Origin: Octopus vulgaris
Lineage: Eukaryota
NCBI GenBank assembly: GCA_951406725.2
Contig: OX597814.1
Coordinates: 13,826,001 to 13,890,000 of the forward strand
Length of the DNA: 64,000 nt
Reading direction: 5' to 3'
The stretch's first letter is position 1, and the number at the start of each line of letters is the position of its first letter. Shown piece after piece: positions 3,627 to 47,078 of this stretch. Made by a program: the position numbers and the translations under genes. The notes under the pieces were generated by a model. That model saw only the letters and a program-made list of their open reading frames with translations, was not told where the DNA came from and did not search any database.

Positions 3627-3760
3627 GATGTGTGTATATTTATATAATTAATAACGGTAACATTAATTAATTAATTAATCAATCAATTAATTAATAATTT
3701 TACCAAGTAGATTCGTAGGTTAAAATAAATTTTATATGTAAAATTATACAAATATTGTGC

Positions 3761-3998
3761 AATTATAAACATAATTATAATTATGGGTCGGCTAATTGCT
3801 TCACCACATACCGAATTTAGAAACGGGAGTTAAACATTACTTTACTATTAATGTAAGAATCTACACAACAGTAAAACGAGCGTGTTACTGTCGCGGAGAT
3901 TCTTACAGTAGTAGAAAAAGAATGTTTAACTCCTACTTCTAAATTCGGTATGTAGTGAAGTAATTAGCTGAACCCTAATTATAATTATGTTTATAATT
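3761..3998. repeat. ~240-bp imperfect palindrome
   Basis: AATTATAAACATAATTATAATTATGGGTCGGCTAATTGCTTCACCACATACCGAATTTAGAA... mirrors ...TTCTAAATTCGGTATGTAGTGAAGTAATTAGCTGAACCCTAATTATAATTATGTTTATAATT. Centre near 3878 (ACAGTAA/TTACTGT). Confidence 0.85.
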
Positions 3999-4007
3999 AT
4001 AGAATAT

Positions 4008-4071
<64 letters not shown>

Positions 4072-4260
4072 TCTTTAGTCTTTTACTTGTTTCAGACCCT
4101 TGACTGTGGCCATATTGGAGCACCGCCCGCAGGACATTCTTTATAAGCCTAGTACTCATTCGATGGGAATCTTTTGCCGAACCCCTAAGATACGGGGAGG
4201 TAACTACATCAGCGTCTGAGAAGAAGTGATGTTGGGTGGACAAACATAGACACACAAACA
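4072..4260 (-). mobile_element. 3' fragment of tRNA-derived SINE family A
   Basis: TTTTACTTGTTTCAG..TTGACTGTGGCCATATTGGAGCACC..TTTTGCCGAACC matches the full-length copy at 39095-39548. Confidence 0.75.
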
Positions 4261-4269
4261 TACACACAT

Positions 4270-4357
<88 letters not shown>

Positions 4358-4386
4358 ATACAATATGTTACATTACTCGGTAGTCA

Positions 4387-4449
4387 AGATAAAACTCTGA
4401 GTTTCAGATGCCGAAGTGGAAATCCACAACACCATCTCATCGGTTATCT
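4387..4449 (-). ncRNA. Type I hammerhead ribozyme in PLE 3' region (left arm)
   Basis: Reverse complement of 8260-8322. Confidence 0.75.
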
Positions 4450-4635
4450 GGCTATTTGAAAACGTTATGAAAAAATATACCGTTAAAAATTAAGGGAAAT
4501 TACTCTGTTATAACTCTGCTTTGCCTGCGTACTTATACATCGCTCGCATTTTTCGTCATAAAAATTATATAAAAATACATAAAAATATATAAAAATATAT
4601 AAAATCTTCTTGGGACATAACACAGAAAGCATGTT

Positions 4636-6557
4636 CTATCCGTTTTCTTTAGGGGACCAAAAACGTAACAGAAATTTAGTCACATGTGGGCATGATCCGA
4701 AAAGTTCTGTCCTTGTATTTAGACATGTGGTAGGGTCTAAGCTGCTTTTCCAGATAAGCCATCTCTCCATGTCGCATAAACCGCACCTTCCGCTGCCGTT
4801 AGTATAGGGCTTACATCTGGCCAAAATCTTCCATTGTATGTTATAATCGACACCTTTATCTCTTAAAGACCAAATATGATTGGATAATTGTGTCGCTTTT
4901 CTTTTGTTCCAGTGCCTAAAGCTCAAAGTGTGGTTATTGAACCTGGCCTTGAAATTACCCTCTGTCAGGCCCACGTATTTCTTCGTCGAAACGGTGTCTT
5001 TAGTGGTTATAGAGTTTACGGTAGCTTCATATATGATGGTCTTGGACATGCAAGCTCCATTTAGCGGGCACAATTCTTTATTCCTGCATGAACAGCTGTT
5101 TTCTTCTTGTGTTTTTTGTATGTTATGATTGATTATGTTTTTAAAATTGGTAGTTGAACTAAAACTAATTTTTAAATTGTGTCTATTGAAGAGTTTCCTA
5201 TAAGCATGGTTAACTGGAAAATGTCTATCTATCAGTGCTAGGAAATATTTACCTATATTGAAGGCCACCTCGGGTGAGTAAGGGGGCGTAAACCAGATGA
5301 CCTTCCTATTTCTATTATTCCTTTTCCTTATTGTTGGGCTGGTGATAGGTGTATATTTTATTTTTTCGCTAAAACCACTATCTTTTAAAGCTTTATTATA
5401 AACTGGGGCAACGCTATTGAAGATGTCCTCATTAGATGAGAGGCTAGAAATCCTCTTACTAATATTTTTAACTAAATTTTTGAATACTATAGGGGGATGG
5501 CATGAACCTACATTAATATAACTTAGTCTATCATTGGGCTTCCTATAAGGCTTATAAATATTATTATTAAGATCTAAGGAAACGTCTAAGAAATTGACAA
5601 CCGTCAGGTTAGTGTCTATAGTTATACTAAGTCCGAAGTGTTTCATTAACTGGATAATATCCTTCCTAAAACGATCTTGTGTTAGTCCATTTGTATTAGC
5701 TGTTAAGGCGAGGGCATCATCTTTGTAGATGGCGAAATGTACGTTAGGGAATGTCTTACCGAAGGTATCTAGGAGAAAGAGTCCAATTAGATCACAGATG
5801 CCTGCCCCATCATATGAACCCATGCTCACATCGAAAGCGCCCTCCGTGTCGGTGTTTTTTACCCACTTTGCATTCTCACTGAAAAGTAATGTCTTTCTAG
5901 CATGGAAGATTATATCCTTATCATTGGTACTAATTTCTATGAAGTCACTAGCGAAGATTAGGGCTTTATCTAGCAGTTCTTTAGAGATAGAGGCATAAAA
6001 ATCAACAATATCGAATTGTGTAAACCTCGCTTTTTTCTTATTCTTAATAGCTTTAAACCAGTCTACGACTTCTATACTATTGGACCATTGCACTAGCCTA
6101 GTATCGGTCTTAATTTTCGTATTTATTTTATCTAAAATTTCTTTGCTAATAATCCCTAGTTCTGACTTGGCTGGGTTGATAAGCCTACATTTAGGGTTGG
6201 AAAGGAAGTTTTCTTTGTGGTCTTTAATAGTAATAAAGGCCTCTTTTTGGGGAGGGTTTCTATTTTTTTATCTAATTTAAGTTTAGCGGCGATGACGCTA
6301 GCTTCTTTATTAATTTCGTTATATGTCTGTGACCTAGCCTTAGTATAATTATTAATGATGCTGTTGTGTAAGAGTTGTGTGTATTTGCTGTTATCTACCA
6401 GGTATAAGTTCTTGGTTTTATCCGAAAAAAGTGCTTTTTTCTTGGAGCTTTTTATATGATCAATATCTTTTTTCAATTTATGTTGGAAATTGTTAAAAGA
6501 CTTACGAAACTTTATTTTGCTCATGATCTTCAGCAGGTCCGCTTCGAAATCTTCCAA
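4636..6557 (-). pseudogene. PLE reverse transcriptase + GIY-YIG endonuclease, one frameshift near 6250
   Basis: N-terminal FSDKTKNLY (DKT in place of DKG). After the frameshift: EAFITIKDHKENF..CRLINPAKSELG, then FDIVDFY, FDVSMGSYDGA, YKDD, NFLDVSLDL, YKPYRKP, CSCRNKELCPLNGAC, IIYEATV..YVGLT..FKARFNNH, CGLC and SCPH. The frame is open from about 6250 to the stop at 4636. Confidence 0.9.
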
Positions 6558-6616
6558 GCCTTTAATCCTAGGAGGGAATTTTTTGGATTTTATCCGATAG
6601 AAAATGTACTAGGCTA

Positions 6617-8073
6617 GTGCAATGGTCCAATAGTATAGAAGTCGTAGACTGGTTTAAAGCTATTAAGAATAAGAAAAAAGCGAGGTTTACACAATTCGAT
6701 ATTGTTGATTTTTATGCCTCTATCTCTAAAGAACTGCTAGATAAAGCCCTAATCTTCGCTAGTGACTTCATAGAAATTAGTACCAATGATAAGGATATAA
6801 TCTTCCATGCTAGAAAGACATTACTTTTCAGTGAGAATGCAAAGTGGGTAAAAAACACCGACACGGAGGGCGCTTTCGATGTGAGCATGGGTTCATATGA
6901 TGGGGCAGGCATCTGTGATCTAATTGGACTCTTTCTCCTAGATACCTTCGGTAAGACATTCCCTAACGTACATTTCGCCATCTACAAAGATGATGCCCTC
7001 GCCTTAACAGCTAATACAAATGGACCAACACAAGATCGTTTTAGGAAGGATATTATCCAGTTAATGAAACACTTCGGACTTAGTATAACTATAGACACTA
7101 ACCTGACGGTTGTCAATTTCTTAGACGTTTCCTTAGATCTTAATAATAATATTTATAAGCCTTATAGGAAGCCCAATGATAGACTAAGTTATATTAATGT
7201 AGGTTCATGCCATCCCCCTATAGTATTCAAAAATTTAGTTAAAAATATTAGTAAGAGGATTTCTAGCCTCTCATCTAATGAGGACATCTTCAATAGCGTT
7301 GCCCCAGTTTATAATAAAGCTTTAAAAGATAGTGGTTTTAGCGAAAAAATAAAATACACACCTATCACCAGCCCAACAATAAGGAAAAGGAATAATAGAA
7401 ATAGGAAGGTCATCTGGTTTACGCCCCCTTACTCACCCGAGGTGGCCTTCAATATAGGTAAATATTTCTAGCACTGATAGATAGACATTTTCCAGTTAAC
7501 CATGCTTATAGGAAACTCTTCAATAGACACAATTTAAAAATTAGTTTTAGTTCAACTACCAATTTTAAAAATATAATCAATCATAACATACAAAAAACAC
7601 AAGAAGAAAACAGCTGTTCATGCAGGAATAAAGAATTGTGCCCGCTAAATGGAGCTTGCATGTCCAAGACCATCATATATGAAGCTACCGTAAACTCTAT
7701 AACCACTAAAGACACCGTTTCGACGAAGAAATACGTGGGCCTGACAGAGGGTAATTTCAAGGCCAGGTTCAATAACCACACTTTGAGCTTTAGGCACTGG
7801 AACAAAAGAAAAGCGACACAATTATCCAATCATATTTGGTCTTTAAGAGATAAAGGTGTCGATTATAACATACAATGGAAGATTTTGGCCAGATGTAAGC
7901 CCTATACTAACGGCAGCGGAAGGTGCGGTTTATGCGACATGGAGAGATGGCTTATCTGGAAAAGCAGCTTAGACCCTACCACATGTCTAAATACAAGGAC
8001 AGAACTTTTCGGATCATGCCCACATGTGACTAAATTTCTGTTACGTTTTTGGTCCCCTAAAGAAAACGGATAG
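6617..8073 (+). pseudogene. PLE RT + GIY-YIG, broken by a 1-bp deletion near 7468
   Basis: ORFs 6617-7471 and 7636-8073 match the minus-strand 485-aa ORF. AAATATTTCTAG here versus AAATATTTCCTAG in the left arm. Confidence 0.9.
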
Positions 8074-8259
8074 AACATGCTTTCTGTGTTATGTCCCAAG
8101 AAGATTTTATATATTTTTATATATTTTTATGTATTTTTATATAATTTTTATGACGAAAAATGCGAGCGATGTATAAGTACGCAGGCAAAGCAGAGTTATA
8201 ACAGAGTAATTTCCCTTAATTTTTAACGGTATATTTTTTCATAACGTTTTCAAATAGCC

Positions 8260-8322
8260 AGATAACCGATGAGATGGTGTTGTGGATTTCCACTTCGGCA
8301 TCTGAAACTCAGAGTTTTATCT
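8260..8322 (+). ncRNA. Type I hammerhead ribozyme in PLE 3' region (right arm)
   Basis: Stem I AGATAA/TTATCT; core CCGATGA; stem II GATG/CATC with inner GTGGA/TCCAC; extra T then GAAA; near-palindromic stem III ACTC-A-GAGT; predicted GUU cleavage triplet. Confidence 0.75.
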
Positions 8323-8418
8323 TGACTACCGAGTAATGTAACATATTGTATAGATAAATTTCCTCTATTTACATAATATTGAGGTCTCTTTCTTTCTTTT
8401 GTTATCTTACCGTTTTAT

Positions 8419-8468
<50 letters not shown>

Positions 8469-12419: not shown

Positions 12420-12794
12420 CATGAATTACATGGAAAAATGCGAGCAAGAGAAATATTATTCTCAAGATCATAAACCTACACAATTACAGGACAAGTTATT
12501 ACGCTTGGAAAAGTTCAGGACAATGTATTACACCTGGTAAAGTACAGAACAATAAAATATTTTACTTAAAATATTGCAGCTAAGGATAAAATTTGAATAC
12601 TGAATATTAGTTGATTTTAATTTACAAAGTAACATAATAATTTAAAAAAGGGACCAGCATTTCATAATATTGATACAATAGAATACTTCAAAATGAGAGC
12701 TACAAGTACTATTATAACTAAAGATGTATGCAAAGTAGAATAGCATACAGTAGTAACTAGGTCTACGAACGCCTCTAATCACGAATAAATCGTG

Positions 12795-12831
<37 letters not shown>

Positions 12832-13803
12832 AACACGCATATAAATATCTGTATGTATATATAAATACATATAGTGCTGATGACACCTACTGAGGCAGAG
12901 AAACGTGACCCTAGTGTACTTTAATCACCAGATCACATTATATTACACATAATCATACCTTTTCAAATGTATAGTAAGTTTTTTCAATGTTTTTCCCCAG
13001 TATATATGTTCGAAAACCGAGGTACTACTGTAAATGGCAGGTAAATTCACTATGTAACAAATAGACATTGGAACAAGATTAAAATGTGAAGACTTGGCAA
13101 TAACTCAAGCAAATGTTACTGTCTAATTGCTGTTATAGATAGCTTTACTGTAATATATAACCAATTTTGTATTAACCTATTTATTATATTAACTAACTAT
13201 GTACTACTATTACATTTTATAACCTACCTTCAAATTCCTAATTATTAATGAACCTATTAAGTCCCACTGTCCTATTAATTGGACGCTAAATGAGAAAATT
13301 AAAAGAGCTATATTACATTGTCTCAATGTTCTATTTATAGGACACCGAGTATTTCCATTTCTGCTTGAAATAAAGTAGTTTCAATTTTTTTTTTCATTTT
13401 AACCTATTTTCAATAATCTGCAAAAAATTTAAAACTAATATTCAGAAATTTAAGTACTCTGGGACTTAATGGGTTAATAATTTTTAAAATGAGTTTTTTT
13501 GAAGTGCAAAAGACATTTTAATTGAATTATTTTATTTTTGATAGAATTAACAAGTAATAACAAATAGAAGCAATAATATAAATTTTAGTTTTAATAAAAG
13601 CTAATATTTTCTAAATCTAAATATTTTATTTGAAATTTTATTCTTAGCTGCAATATTTGAAGTAAAACTTTTTGTTCCGTATTTTACCAAATGTAATAAT
13701 TTATTCTGTACTTTTCCAAGAGTAATAACTTGTCCTGTAGTTTTCGATGTTTATAATCTTATGAATATTATTTCTCTTGCTCGCATTTTTCCATGTAATA
13801 ATG
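12420..13803. repeat. Pair of diverged ~175-bp inverted repeats (12420-12595 and 13633-13803)
   Basis: ATGGAAAAATGCGAGCAAGAGAAATA..ACAGGACAAGTTATTAC.CTTGGAAAAGT..AATATTGCAGCTAAG at left; its reverse complement at right. Both translate YMEKCEQEK. Confidence 0.8.
13253..13473. mobile_element. piggyBac-like MITE
   Basis: TGAA|CCTATTAAGTCCCA ... TGGGACTTAATGGG|TTAA: a 14-bp TIR with 1 mismatch and a TTAA target (left copy mutated). Confidence 0.65.
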
Positions 13804-18053: not shown

Positions 18054-20599
18054 CAGTAGTTTTATTTTTATTTTTATAGCGTGCTTTCACTTCACTACCG
18101 AGCACAGCTCTGTGTGCCTTGGGTTTGTGCTGTGATTTGTTGTGATGCTCTGATGGTTATTGTATGGAAAGTGTTCTGCGTAGGATGTGTGCAGTGCCCA
18201 GTAGTGCAATTTTCTGTATGTTATATGTGTTTGTAAGTCCTGGTGTTTTTGTTATGTATTTGTCTGAATATTTTTTTATCATGCCTAATGCACCTACTAT
18301 GATAGGAATTGTTTCTGTTTTCAGATTCCACATTCTAGTTACCTCTATTTCCAGGTCTTTGTATTTTGAGAGTTTCTCCATTTCTTTTAGAGACACGTTG
18401 TCATCTGCCGGTACTGATACATCAATTAGAAAGCATTTTTTTCTTCATGGTCTCTGACAACTATATCTGGTCTGTTGGCCTTAATTTCTCTATCTGTGTG
18501 TATCGGCATATCCCAGAGTATGGTTGCTTTCTCGTTTTCTGTGACCTTTTCTGGTGTGTGCCTATACCATCTTTTTTCTGTTGTTATTCCATAATGTTGG
18601 CATAGCTTCCAATGTATGTAAGTTCCAACTCTGTCATGTCTGTGAATATATTCCTTCTTAGCCAGGACTGGGCAGCTAGAGATAATATGATTTATTGTTT
18701 CTTGTCCATCTCCACATATTCTGCAGTTACTTGTAATATTTCTTTTCATTACATGTTTTTGGTAATTTCTGGTGGGGAGGCTTTGGTCTTGTGCTGCAAT
18801 TAAAAATCCCTCTGTTTCTGCTTTGAGTCCTGAGCTTCTCAACCATTGCTGGGATTTTTCTTTGTCTATTTCTTTTGCGTTTAGTTTAGTCCAGTATTTA
18901 CCATGAAGGGGCTTTTCTTGCCATCGTTTTATCATGGTTCGTTGCTGTTCTATTTTTAGTTTGGATTTCATTTTTTTTATAGCTTTTGTTGTTTCTTCAT
19001 CTTCTTCTTCTTCTTCTTCATGTTTATTAGGTGGTATGATTTCTTGTTTGTATTTGTCAGCTTCCTTAAATACTGAGAACAGTTTTTTGTTTTGCTCGTG
19101 TTTTGCCGCTATCTGGATCAGTTTTCCTTCCTTCTGAAGTAGATATTTTTGCAGTCCTATGGTGGTTATTTTATAGTAGTTTTCCAGCTGTATAAGGCCT
19201 CTACCACCTTCTATACGTTGTATATATAGTCTTTCTATGTCAGATTTTGGGTGATGCATCCTAGATCCTGTCATTATTTTTCTTGTTTTCCTGTCTATTT
19301 TGGTCAGTTCATTTCGTGTCCAGTTAAGGATATTGTAGCTGTAACTTATAACTGGGACAGCTAAAGTGTTGATACCTATTATCTTGTTTTTAGCATTGAG
19401 CTCTGTGTTTAGTATTGATCTAACTCGTCTATAATATTCTTTTTTTATTTTCTCTTTCATTTGTGTGTGTTGTGTCTTATCTAGTTCATGGATTCCTAAG
19501 TATTTGTAAGTTTGGCTTTGGTCTAATTCTTTTATTTCATTTGCTTCATCTAGTGTGATGTTGTTACTCTTAACTAGTTTTCCTCTTTTCATGGTTACTT
19601 TGGCGCATTTTTCTAATCCAAATTTCATATCTATTTCTTTGGTAAATCCATGAACTGTCTTTAATAGTGTTTCCAGCTGTTTGTCATTTGCAGCGTATAG
19701 TTTTAGGTCATCCATATATAAAAGGTGGCTGATCGTTTGGCCGTAACATTTATATCCGCATCCAGTTCTATTTAGCATATCAGATAGAGGTGACAGTGCT
19801 AAGCAGAAAAGGAGTGGAGAGAGCGTATCTCCCTGGAATATTCCTCTTCTAATGGGGATGTCTTTTGTTTTCATGAGTCCCTCTTTTGTTTGGAGGTGTA
19901 GGACTGTTTGCCATTTATTCATAGAGTGCTCTATGAATTTTATGATTGTTGGTGCTACTTTGTTAATGGCTAGTGTTTCGAGGATCCATGTGTGGGGGAT
20001 GCTATCAAACGCCTTTTTGTAGTCAATCCAGGCCATACTGAGGCCTTTCTTCTTTCTGTGGCTGTCTTCAGTTATGGCTTTATTAATCATTAGTTGATCT
20101 TTACAGCCATATGAGCCTTTGCGGCATCCTTTCTGCTCTTCTGGGAACAGTTTGTTTTCGTCCAGGTGCTTGTTCAGCCTTTGTGATATCACTGCAGTAA
20201 ATGCCTTGAACATAGTAGGGAGGCAGGTTATTGGTCTGTAGTTTTCTGGTTTTTCTGTTTCATTTGATTTGGGAATTAAGATGGTTTTCCCCTTCGTGAG
20301 CCATTCAGGCATTGTCTCTGGCTCTGCTAGTACGTTGTTAAAGTTTTCAGCCAGCTTTTTGTGCATTCCTGTTAGATATTTCAACCAGAAGTTGGGGATC
20401 TTGTCATGCCCAGGTGCCTTCCAGTTGCTTAGTCTTTGCAGTGCCTGGGTGACCTCTTCAGTTGTTATGGGGGTCCAAGTTTGTTCAGATGCCGAGTTTG
20501 TTATTTTGATACTCCTTTTTTTTGGTGGTTCGTTCGCCGACCATATTTCTCCCCAGAATTCTTCCAATTCTTCTGCCGTTGGTGCTGCAGTGACTTCTA
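18054..20599 (-). mobile_element. R4/Dong-clade non-LTR retrotransposon (RT + restriction-like endonuclease), 5'-truncated, in (TTA)n
   Basis: The 3' end abuts (TTA)n at 18027-18053 and (TTA)n resumes at about 21040. Dong elements are known to target TAA repeats. Confidence 0.92.
18157..20567 (-). pseudogene. R4/Dong ORF: RT, CCHC zinc knuckle, RLE endonuclease; single frameshift in an A-run near 18440
   Basis: 713-aa ORF with KAPGHD, NYRPITCL, EQKG, WIDYKKAFDS, GIFQGDTLSPLLF, YMDD, YKYLG, CRICGDGQETINHIISSC and NRPDIVV. Continues in the next frame as CFLIDVSVP..EKLSKYKDL..ILRRTLSIQ*. Confidence 0.92.
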
Positions 20600-21036
20600 T
20601 TCTTCCAATTCTTCTGCCGTTGGTGCTGCAGTGACTTCTATTCTTCCAATTCTTCTGCCGTTGGTGCTGCAGTGACTTCTATTCTTCCAATTCTTCTGCC
20701 GTTGGTGCTGCAGTGACTTCTATGTTCTTCCAATTCTTCTGCCGTTGGTGCTGCAGTGACTTCTATTGGTGCTGCAGTGACTTCTATTGGTGCTGCAGTG
20801 ACTTCTATTGGTGCTGCAGTGACTTCTATTGGTGCTGCAGTGACTTCTATTGGTGCTGCAGTGACTTCTATTGGTGCTGCAGTGACTTCTATTGGTGCTG
20901 CAGTGACTTCTATTGGTGCTGCAGTGACTTCTATTGGTGCTGCAGTGACTTCTATTGGTGCTGCAGTGACTTCTATTGGTGCTGCAGTGACTTCTATTGG
21001 TGCTGCAGTGACTTCTATTGGTGCTGCAGTGACTTC

Positions 21037-21038
<2 letters not shown>
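20559..21038. repeat. Nested tandem array made of LINE 5'-junction sequence (5x41 bp + 13x21 bp)
   Basis: The 41-mer TTCTTCCAATTCTTCTGCCGTTGGTGCTGCAGTGACTTCTA starts at 20559, 20600, 20641, 20682 and 20725 (TG inserted before the last). The 21-mer TTGGTGCTGCAGTGACTTCTA occurs 13 times over 20766-21038. Confidence 0.95.
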
Positions 21039-21100
<62 letters not shown>

Positions 21101-45619: not shown

Positions 45620-45832
45620 CTCGTGTTTCAGCTGAGAGTTGCGGCCATGATGATGCACCACCATATTGCTACATTTCTTCCTAAACAGCAGGGGTCGCCA
45701 CCATCCCCTCCTAGAGCCTTGTGGGGTTTTAGATATTTTTGCTCAATAAACACTCACAACGCCCGGTCTGGGAATCGAAACCGAGAACCTCCGACCGCGA
45801 GTCCGCTGCCCTAATGACTGGGCCATTGCGCC
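45620..45832 (-). mobile_element. 5' part of SINE family D
   Basis: Minus strand GGCGCAATGGCCCAGTCATTAGGGCAGCGGACTCGCGGTC..GGTTTCGATTCCCAGACCGGGCG matches 46691-46820. Confidence 0.8.
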
Positions 45833-46690
45833 CAGTCGTTAAACAATTGTATAAAGCTACGATTATTGTAAAGTATACTATTTCTTAGATAAAAAAAAAC
45901 CAATGAAACATACTACTCATCAGATGTGTACAAGAGTTAATAAGACGAGCCTAACATCATCACGCACAATTCCCTCTGCTTTATATTTACCAATCCTTTT
46001 TTTTCTCTCTCTCTCTCTCCCTCTCTCCATCACCTGTTCTTTCCTATCAAATACATACAGAACTGCGCACATGCTCGAATGAATCTTTTGATAGGTGAAA
46101 ATTGATGAACACCCTTCCGTTATACCTTCGTAGCTTGCAACTTTAATGCCATTTCGCCTAATCAACAAAGATCCACTTGATGTCCCTAGATAGTACGGAT
46201 TGCACTGCAATCATCGTAAGAATACGGACTATGATGGTAAGAAACATGTGATGCGTGAAAACACACGAAGCGATGCATTGAAATATCTGTAAATTCTCTC
46301 GGTGGATTATTATTATTAAAATTATTACTATATTACCCTACATTATATCGGCGGAACGCAGTACAACCCCAGGAAACTACTATTGCAAGTTGATACCATA
46401 AGACGCAGCCGATATAATAATATAGGATCTATTATATGCATACGCAAAAGCGTTTCCCGTAAACAAACTTAAACGGTACACATGGACACGCACACACATA
46501 CACATACACGCCACACGCACATACACATACACACACAAACACACACGCACACATACACGCACACACACACACGCACACACACGCACATACACACATAGTG
46601 GCGGATTGGCTGCTTGCCTGCTTGCCCGATGGCAAATGGGCCCCCTACGCCATTAGAATCCATATAGAGAGTCTCATGTTAATATCTAAT

Positions 46691-47078
46691 GGAGGCGCAA
46701 TGGCGCAGTGGTTAGGGCAGCGGACTCGCGGTCATAGTATCGCGGTTTCGATTCCCAGACCGGGCGTTGTGAGTGTTTATTGAGCGAAAACACCTAAAGC
46801 TCCACGAGGCTCCGGCAGGGGATGGTGGTGATCCCTGCTGTACTCTTTCACCACAACTTTCTCTCACTCTTACTTCCTGTTTCTCTTGTACCTGTATTTC
46901 AAGGGGCCGGCCTTGTCACTCTCTGTGTCACGCTGAATATCCCCGAGAACTACGTTAAGGGTACACGTGTCTGTGGAGTGCTCAGCCACTTACACGTTAA
47001 TTTCACGAGCAGGCTGTTCCGTTGATTCGGATCAACCGGAACCCTCATCGTCGTAACCGACGGAGTGCTTCCATTCCC
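46691..47078 (+). mobile_element. Full-length tRNA-derived SINE family D with TSD
   Basis: A box TGGCGCAGTGG and B box GTTTCGATTCC. Perfect 10-bp TSD AATATCTAAT (46681-46690, 47079-47088). Confidence 0.92.

What the first reader, a model, noticed from the sequence alone, without database searches (positions are those of the whole stretch)
4353..8420. Penelope element inserted as a 4-kb head-to-head palindrome: a double-priming snapshot
Seen: arms 4353-6103 and 6607-8356 are reverse complements with only three differences noticed by eye (GLT/GPT codon, a 1-bp deletion, one silent change). The 503-bp spacer is simply the extra 5' part of the left copy. The two 5'-truncated ends are joined directly at 6606/6607, both 3' ends sit in (TA)n, and the right arm runs ~64 bp further. 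Known: PLEs often carry inverted segments. Inference: one event in which both strands of a cut (TA)n target primed cDNA and the products were joined, with an unusually long inverted part. Read-through would give a 1.75-kb dsRNA, a potential endo-siRNA/piRNA source or ADAR substrate that could silence the family.
Basis: partly seen in the sequence, partly recalled or inferred. Interest (0 to 1): 0.7.

Follow-up and report, generated by a model that had tools for sequence, protein, structure and literature searches.

The report
Typical head-to-head Hydra-clade Penelope insertion
This 4-kb mirror repeat is one broken copy of a young, abundant jumping gene that usually lands as two back-to-back halves, a known layout; its many sister copies show a strict short-end/long-end rule and matching halves, likely because one RNA is copied from both strands of the cut DNA.

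Summary
The palindrome is real: arms 4353-6103 and 6607-8356 with four differences (not three), a 503-bp spacer, a 1-nt junction overlap and (TA)n at both ends. It is a dead copy of a young Penelope-like family with Hydra-clade motifs. The layout is the family norm: 76 of 111 end-selected sites on contig C1 are head-to-head, and the extra 66 bp is the published PLE 'tail'. These arms are long but within a continuum. The family data constrain mechanism. Exactly one end carries the tail in 87 of 87 resolved insertions. Either arm can be longer (tailed 22, tail-less 13). The two arms share a haplotype (9 discordant calls against 174 expected), and this locus has three rare alleles in both arms. 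This favours priming from both target strands at two fixed start points, likely on one RNA, over simple fold-back; two RNAs from one source are not excluded. The dsRNA/ADAR/silencing idea is untested; no A-to-G-skewed copy was seen. The scan noted this end rule before at other loci of this genome. Known architecture, modest mechanistic value.

The parts
4250..4326 (.). (CA)n microsatellite flanking the left end
4327..4354 (.). (TA)n target tract, left side
4353..6606 (-). Left copy: 5'-truncated PLE (unit positions about 327-2590 of a 2590-bp unit), tail-less 3' end
4353..6103 (-). Left palindrome arm (1751 bp)
6104..6606 (-). 503-bp spacer = extra 5' part of the left copy
4636..6267 (-). 543-aa open frame: RT (YKDD), CxCX5C linker, GIY-YIG endonuclease, CxxC and CxH; lacks the N-terminus; frame break at 6248/6249 relative to an uninterrupted natural copy
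6156..6608 (-). Upstream frame of the same ORF with the DKT motif, start codon and RWK motif lost by truncation
6606..6607 (.). Head-to-head junction, 1-nt microhomology
6607..8356 (+). Right arm: 5'-truncated copy (unit positions 830-2590), 1-bp deletion at 7467/7468 splits the ORF (6572-7471, 7462-8073)
8357..8422 (+). 66-nt tail = first bases of the next tandem unit; present on this end only
8421..8467 (.). (TA)23 target tract, right side
8260..8322 (+). Hammerhead-like motif in the pLTR (stem I and II fold; core CCGAnGA...GAAA, U4C variant); mirror copy at about 4387-4449 on the minus strand; cleavage untested
   Evidence: no Rfam hammerhead hit
8242..8262 (+). Position in the unit where 28 of 124 arm 5' ends of sister insertions cluster (possible RNA 5' end)
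7028..7028 (+). Rare allele shared by both arms (mirror 5682); further shared rare alleles at 8218/4491 and 8270/4439
   Evidence: (window positions converted by hand from unit positions 1251, 2452, 2504)

Best explanation
This is a single, now inactive insertion of a young Penelope-like retrotransposon with Hydra-clade motifs, laid down as two back-to-back 5'-truncated halves in a (TA)n tract, likely because both nicked target strands primed reverse transcription of one element RNA at two fixed start points 66 nt apart. Shown: the anatomy, the family-wide one-tail rule, mixed arm lengths and the shared haplotype. Inferred: the GIY-YIG/RT protein (probably a dimer) nicks both strands of (TA)n; one 3'-OH starts at the body end and the other at the tail end of a read-through RNA; each cDNA stops independently or at the RNA's 5' end; the two cDNA ends are joined with 0-4 nt microhomology or filler bases; host repair fills in. 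Here the tail-less cDNA ran 503 nt further. Speculative: the tail is the free single-stranded landing site for the second primer, whose RT displaces the first cDNA.
For: Tail on exactly one end in 87 of 87 insertions with both outer ends resolved; 10 further junction rows had an unresolved end; no tail/tail or none/none case, and none among the C1 pattern lists either. With arms differing by more than 45 nt the tailed arm is longer in 22 and the tail-less arm in 13 of 35, so neither arm is always a partial copy of the other; at this locus the shorter arm holds 66 nt the longer one lacks and the longer holds 503 nt the shorter lacks. Arms agree at shared polymorphic sites: 9 discordant of 1065 comparisons in 57 insertions against 174 expected from other insertions. 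Both window arms carry alleles found in only 2 of 53, 2 of 60 and 4 of 82 insertion counts. Near-equal arms (within 45 nt) are enriched: 6 of 34 against 1.4 by permutation, p=0.002, and 13 of 62 have both arms ending at one hotspot, as expected if both cDNAs run off one RNA end. 48 of 50 ends in the set not selected for TA lie in (TA)n. In vitro, a Poseidon PLE cleaves and extends both strands, starts RT at two internal sites that delimit the tail, and is predicted to be a dimer (PMC11167929, parts 1-2 of 4 read).
Against: Shared haplotype cannot separate one RNA from two RNAs of one source locus, and the expected value partly reflects subfamilies of different age. Nine polymorphic calls in 6 insertions are discordant and the 10-bp repeat count differs between arms in 6 of 47 insertions (about 15 expected at random, hand calculation), which needs slippage or a second template. 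Near-symmetric arms also fit fold-back. 35 of 111 C1 sites show no second arm of 22 nt or more. In vitro no strand preference of start sites was seen and coupling of the two starts was not tested. The in vitro enzyme is from another clade. No target-site duplication can be read in (TA)n.
Confidence: 0.55

Rival explanations
1. Both strands prime, but on two RNA molecules from the same source locus held by an asymmetric dimer that uses one start site each.
For: Gives the shared haplotype if few sources are active in a cell; allows the few discordant arms; needs no strand displacement; dimer predicted in PMC11167929.
Against: Does not by itself explain the excess of near-equal long arms; needs a further rule to forbid tail/tail and none/none (0 of 87).
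Confidence: 0.22
2. Self-priming fold-back (on the cDNA or on an antisense RNA, as proposed in PMC3846280) makes a hairpin that the endonuclease opens with a staggered cut, leaving one tail.
For: Predicts identical arms, near-symmetric junctions and one tail; microhomology of 2 nt or more in 21 of 37 junctions without filler against about 18% for random joins (the other 50 of 87 scored as gaps, some inflated by nearby substitutions). Discussion section read.
Against: A strand-specific staggered cut should put the tail always on the longer or always on the shorter arm; observed 22:13. This locus would need a 503-nt loop closed by 1 nt of pairing.
Confidence: 0.15
3. Two independent insertions, or a later inverted duplication, homogenised by gene conversion.
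For: Long inverted repeats can convert each other (general knowledge); 31 insertion-private variants are shared by both arms.
Against: 92 private variants sit in one arm only, so conversion is not erasing differences; chance of a tailed end within 20 kb in the right orientation is about 0.005, observed 30 of 42; a strict one-tail rule is not expected.
Confidence: 0.05
4. Fold-back assembly artefact.
For: Palindromes are a known long-read artefact (general knowledge); the specific junction has not been confirmed in reads.
Against: Four arm-private differences, a tail and flanks unique to each end; the same rule at dozens of loci; short-read contigs of runs from other studies contain head-to-head joints of this family at depth 40-700, e.g. 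4451 to 8252 in X2 and X3.
Confidence: 0.03

Closest known systems
Hydra-clade Penelope-like elements (Craig et al. 2021, PMC8557442; section 11 and passages read, supplements not read)
   Same: Unit under 3 kb, single ORF with C-terminal GIY-YIG, RWK, DKT, CxCX5C linker, CxxC and CxH, (TA)n targets; partial tandems, inverted 5'-truncated copy and tail at one end (Fig. 2 legend).
   Different: Tail is 66 nt rather than 30-40; hammerhead core carries a U4C change; no phylogeny against their proteins was run; the paper says 'often' one end, here 87 of 87.
Poseidon_Ac of the green anole (Frangieh et al. 2024, PMC11167929; parts 1-2 of 4 read)
   Same: AT-rich targets, tail between two RT start points, both strands cut and extended, tandem organisation.
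   Different: Different clade; tail and start sites lie upstream of the ORF start here; coupling of the two starts and origin of inverted arms were not addressed in the parts read.
Adineta vaga Penelope insertions with inverted pLTR and optional tail (Arkhipova et al. 2013, PMC3846280; passages and Discussion read)
   Same: Head-to-head arrangement, tail on one inverted pLTR, microhomology at junctions.
   Different: They propose self-priming on an antisense template; inverted parts shown are mostly pLTR-sized; here arms reach 1-3 kb and tail polarity is independent of which arm is longer.
L1 twin priming (recalled, not from a call)
   Same: Both target strands prime on one RNA and the cDNAs join by microhomology.
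   Different: L1 gives non-overlapping inverted segments; here both cDNAs start at the 3' end and overlap almost fully, giving a palindrome.

Membership tests
Penelope-like element, EN+ | Single ORF with RT and GIY-YIG endonuclease | tested here: met
   717-aa stop-to-stop frame in 8 natural copies; YKDD and YVGLT motifs; GIY-YIG Pfam E=0.008, below the curated cut-off; Atlas neighbours at 0.94-0.98 with RVT_1, GIY-YIG and HTH_animal. Pfam gave no hit for the 717-aa frame at E<=0.01 and PDB none.
Penelope-like element, EN+ | Partial tandems forming pLTRs, inverted 5'-truncated copy, tail on one end | tested here: met
   (143 exact tandem junctions genome-wide)
Hydra clade | Short element (<3 kb), C-terminal EN | tested here: met
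   2590-bp unit
Hydra clade | RWK present, GxKF not conserved, DKG changed to DKT | tested here: met
   RWK at 46, DKT at 123, no GxKF in natural copy L031; RWK lies in the part missing from the window copies
Hydra clade | CxCX5C linker instead of CX2-5CxxC; CxxC and CxH near the EN end | tested here: met
   in both L031 and the window's left ORF
Hydra clade | CCHH motif absent from EN | tested here: inconclusive
   By eye no cysteines lie between the GIY and YIG halves; no alignment to CCHH-bearing PLEs was made
Hydra clade | Insertion into (TA)n | tested here: met
   48 of 50 ends
Hydra clade | Canonical hammerhead in the pLTR | tested here: inconclusive
   Stems I and II fold (z only -0.9 to -1.7) but the core reads CCGAnGA in 229 of 231 matches; no Rfam hammerhead hit
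Hydra clade | Placement in the RT phylogeny | not tested
   Reference proteins were not available as session sequences
Penelope/Poseidon clade | No Zn-finger-like linker before EN; DKG motif | tested here: not met
   CxCX5C linker and DKT present (definitions)
Naiad/Chlamys | N-terminal EN | tested here: not met
   EN is C-terminal

The most novel reading that the evidence does not exclude
Endonuclease-bearing PLEs normally integrate by obligate paired priming: one RNP copies a single RNA twice, from both strands of the cut, at two fixed start sites, so the tail and the head-to-head inversion are two footprints of one step. This makes the element a built-in factory of hundreds of kilobase-long hairpin loci that could feed its own silencing or editing.
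Probability: 0.4. Interest if true: 0.7.

Novelty: new member of a known kind. Interest (0 to 1): 0.36.

Why it matters
The locus itself is ordinary. How PLEs make their inverted repeats and one-sided tail is stated as open in PMC8557442 and PMC11167929 (passages read). This young, autonomous, coding family gives countable constraints (one-tail rule, free arm polarity, shared haplotype) that argue against simple fold-back and define a direct assay. I did not find these counts in print in four library searches, which miss most subscription papers and did not include supplements; earlier AI notes of this scan report the same end rule at other loci.

Tried and rejected
Junction check in reads: no contig of X1-X4 bridged 6606/6607; these are short-read contigs of possibly other individuals, partly read, so this is no evidence either way. 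Empty site: not testable, the flanking (CA)n(TA)n is skipped by the tool. ADAR fossils: no hit with an A>G or T>C excess among the fetched copies L031-L166 and the window, and none of the four arm differences is A>G. Host gene: Pfam on 120 of 205 window ORFs found only a LINE-type RT and two weak chance-level hits, so intronic position and read-through are unknown; the upstream 10 kb (L167) was only checked for family copies (none). Rfam found only simple-repeat noise. PDB search empty. Scan look-up by sequence empty. My first reading 'Poseidon-type' was dropped after the motif test. Target-site duplication could not be read in (TA)n.

Full report
Observation. Alignment of the two copies gives arms 4353-6103 and 6607-8356 with three substitutions and one 1-bp deletion (one search gives the same two blocks). 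The spacer is the extra 5' part of the left copy, the junction at 6606/6607 overlaps by one base, and both 3' ends enter (TA)n. The right arm's extra 66 nt equals the first 66 nt of the next unit in tandem copies.

Identity. The window lies in a 2.8-Gb genome; earlier scan notes call it an octopus, which I did not test. The left copy found 1899 first-look candidates, 40 scored, nearly all 99% identical. Exact end patterns occur 538 times (tail-less end into TA), 1238 times (tailed end into TA) and 143 times (tandem junction). The unit is 2590 bp, and 8 copies in 36 fetched loci have an uninterrupted 717-aa frame, so the family is probably still active (inference). Motifs RWK, DKT, YKDD, CxCX5C, YVGLT, CxxC and CxH match the Hydra clade as described in PMC8557442 section 11; no tree was built. 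Profile support is weak: GIY-YIG E=0.008, nothing for the full frame at E<=0.01, Atlas neighbours with RT and GIY-YIG. Both window copies lack the 5' end and carry a frame break, so neither can encode the whole protein.

How common is the layout? I took every listed pattern site on contig C1 up to 210.9 Mb: 42 tail-less and 100 tailed ends, 111 sites after merging. All were fetched (and the window). 76 of 111 have a head-to-head second arm: 70 of L067-L166, 2 of L169-L175 and L044/L168, plus L046, L051 and the window. 35 show no second arm of 22 nt or more; 3 of the first 30 of these have a micro-remnant of a tail-less end. The sample is selected on an exact end next to TA, so it favours young copies. 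Published descriptions already give this layout as typical: an inverted 5'-truncated copy with a tail often at one end only (PMC8557442, passages; PMC3846280, passages). The window's shorter arm is in the upper range: 1 of 62 other resolved C1 insertions is longer, 10 of 62 reach 1 kb.

Three constraints on mechanism. First, the tail is on exactly one end in 87 of 87 insertions with both outer ends resolved (62 from the C1 sample, 25 from the length-biased set including the window; 10 more junction rows unresolved). No same-type pair appears in the pattern lists. Independent choice of start site would give about half. Second, polarity is free: for arms differing by more than 45 nt the tailed arm is longer in 22 and shorter in 13 (27 of 62 within 45 nt). 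The window is a tail-on-shorter case, so neither arm can be a plain copy of the other. Third, the arms share a source: 9 discordant of 1065 polymorphic calls in the 57 of 87 insertions with at least 150 nt overlap, against 174 expected. The window's arms share three rare alleles, two of them also in L148 and one in L140. Ongoing gene conversion does not explain this, since 92 private variants are arm-specific and 31 shared. Against a perfect single template: 6 insertions have discordant calls and 6 of 47 differ in the 10-bp repeat count.

Further hints. 28 of 124 arm 5' ends fall in a 21-nt window just upstream of a hammerhead-like motif, and 13 of 62 insertions have both arms ending there; near-equal long arms are enriched (6 of 34, permutation mean 1.4, p=0.002). 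Both fit run-off at the 5' end of one RNA, and also fit fold-back. Junction microhomology of 2 nt or more is seen in 21 of 37 filler-free junctions against about 18% at random.

Mechanism. Best reading (0.55): both nicked strands of (TA)n prime on one RNA at two fixed sites 66 nt apart, and the cDNA ends are joined. This extends the in vitro result that a Poseidon PLE cuts and extends both strands and starts RT at two sites bounding the tail (PMC11167929, parts 1-2). The coupling and the single template are my inference. Rivals: two RNAs from one source (0.22); self-priming fold-back with endonuclease resolution as in PMC3846280 (Discussion) (0.15); later rearrangement (0.05); assembly artefact (0.03). 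Short-read contigs from other studies hold head-to-head joints of this family, so the architecture is not an assembly product, though this particular junction remains unconfirmed.

dsRNA claim. A read-through transcript would fold into a 1.75-kb duplex by sequence alone, but nothing here shows transcription or a host gene. No A-to-G-skewed copy was found among those fetched. Earlier notes report edited Penelope copies elsewhere in this genome; I did not check those loci. The hammerhead-like core has U4C, a variant I did not see in the passages read of PMC4209133; cleavage is untested.

Prior scan notes. The short-end/long-end rule and the one-RNA idea were noted before for other loci of this genome; these are unchecked AI notes and are not counted as support. 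One note suggests halves from different parents; in this family that is the exception. Supplements of the cited papers were not read and may hold related counts.

Verdict. A real feature, a new member of a known kind, with family statistics that make an open mechanistic question testable. Interest 0.36.

Noticed in passing
window 18429-20678 (-), with 20558-21040: 750-aa frame with RVT_1 (E=6e-33) and zf-RVT, a LINE-type element, abutting perfect 41-bp and 21-bp tandem arrays.
   Followed up: no
window 3733-4026: Imperfect palindrome of 146-nt arms, 82% complementary, 2-nt loop, ending in (TA)n just left of the element; MITE-like.
   Followed up: no
window 45685-46841, 12425-13799, 30724-30876/39197-39349: Further short inverted pairs (131-153 nt, 85-91%).
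   Followed up: no
L085 (G000:C1:128565117-128570938): Near-perfect 5-kb palindrome of this family: arms of about 2.47 kb with no base difference and a spacer of about 35 nt; a better dsRNA or instability candidate than the window copy, and worth a read check.
   Followed up: partly
L044/L168 (G000:C1:57208773-57222592) and L054/L055 (C3:37.22-37.24 Mb): Insertions of 14-15 kb with several tandem full units in one or both arms, still with one tailed and one tail-less end.
   Followed up: partly
unit position equal to window 8242-8262: Hotspot of arm 5' ends giving many 270-290-bp mini-palindromes; may mark the transcript start.
   Followed up: partly
window 8105-8151 and 4558-4604: 10-bp tandem repeat in the 3' UTR; where arms differ by one unit, the tailed arm is the shorter in 5 of 6 cases.
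   Followed up: partly
window 8266-8272: Hammerhead-like core carries C at the position of U4 in nearly all copies; the window has the rare T at the variable position (13 of 231 matches).
   Followed up: partly
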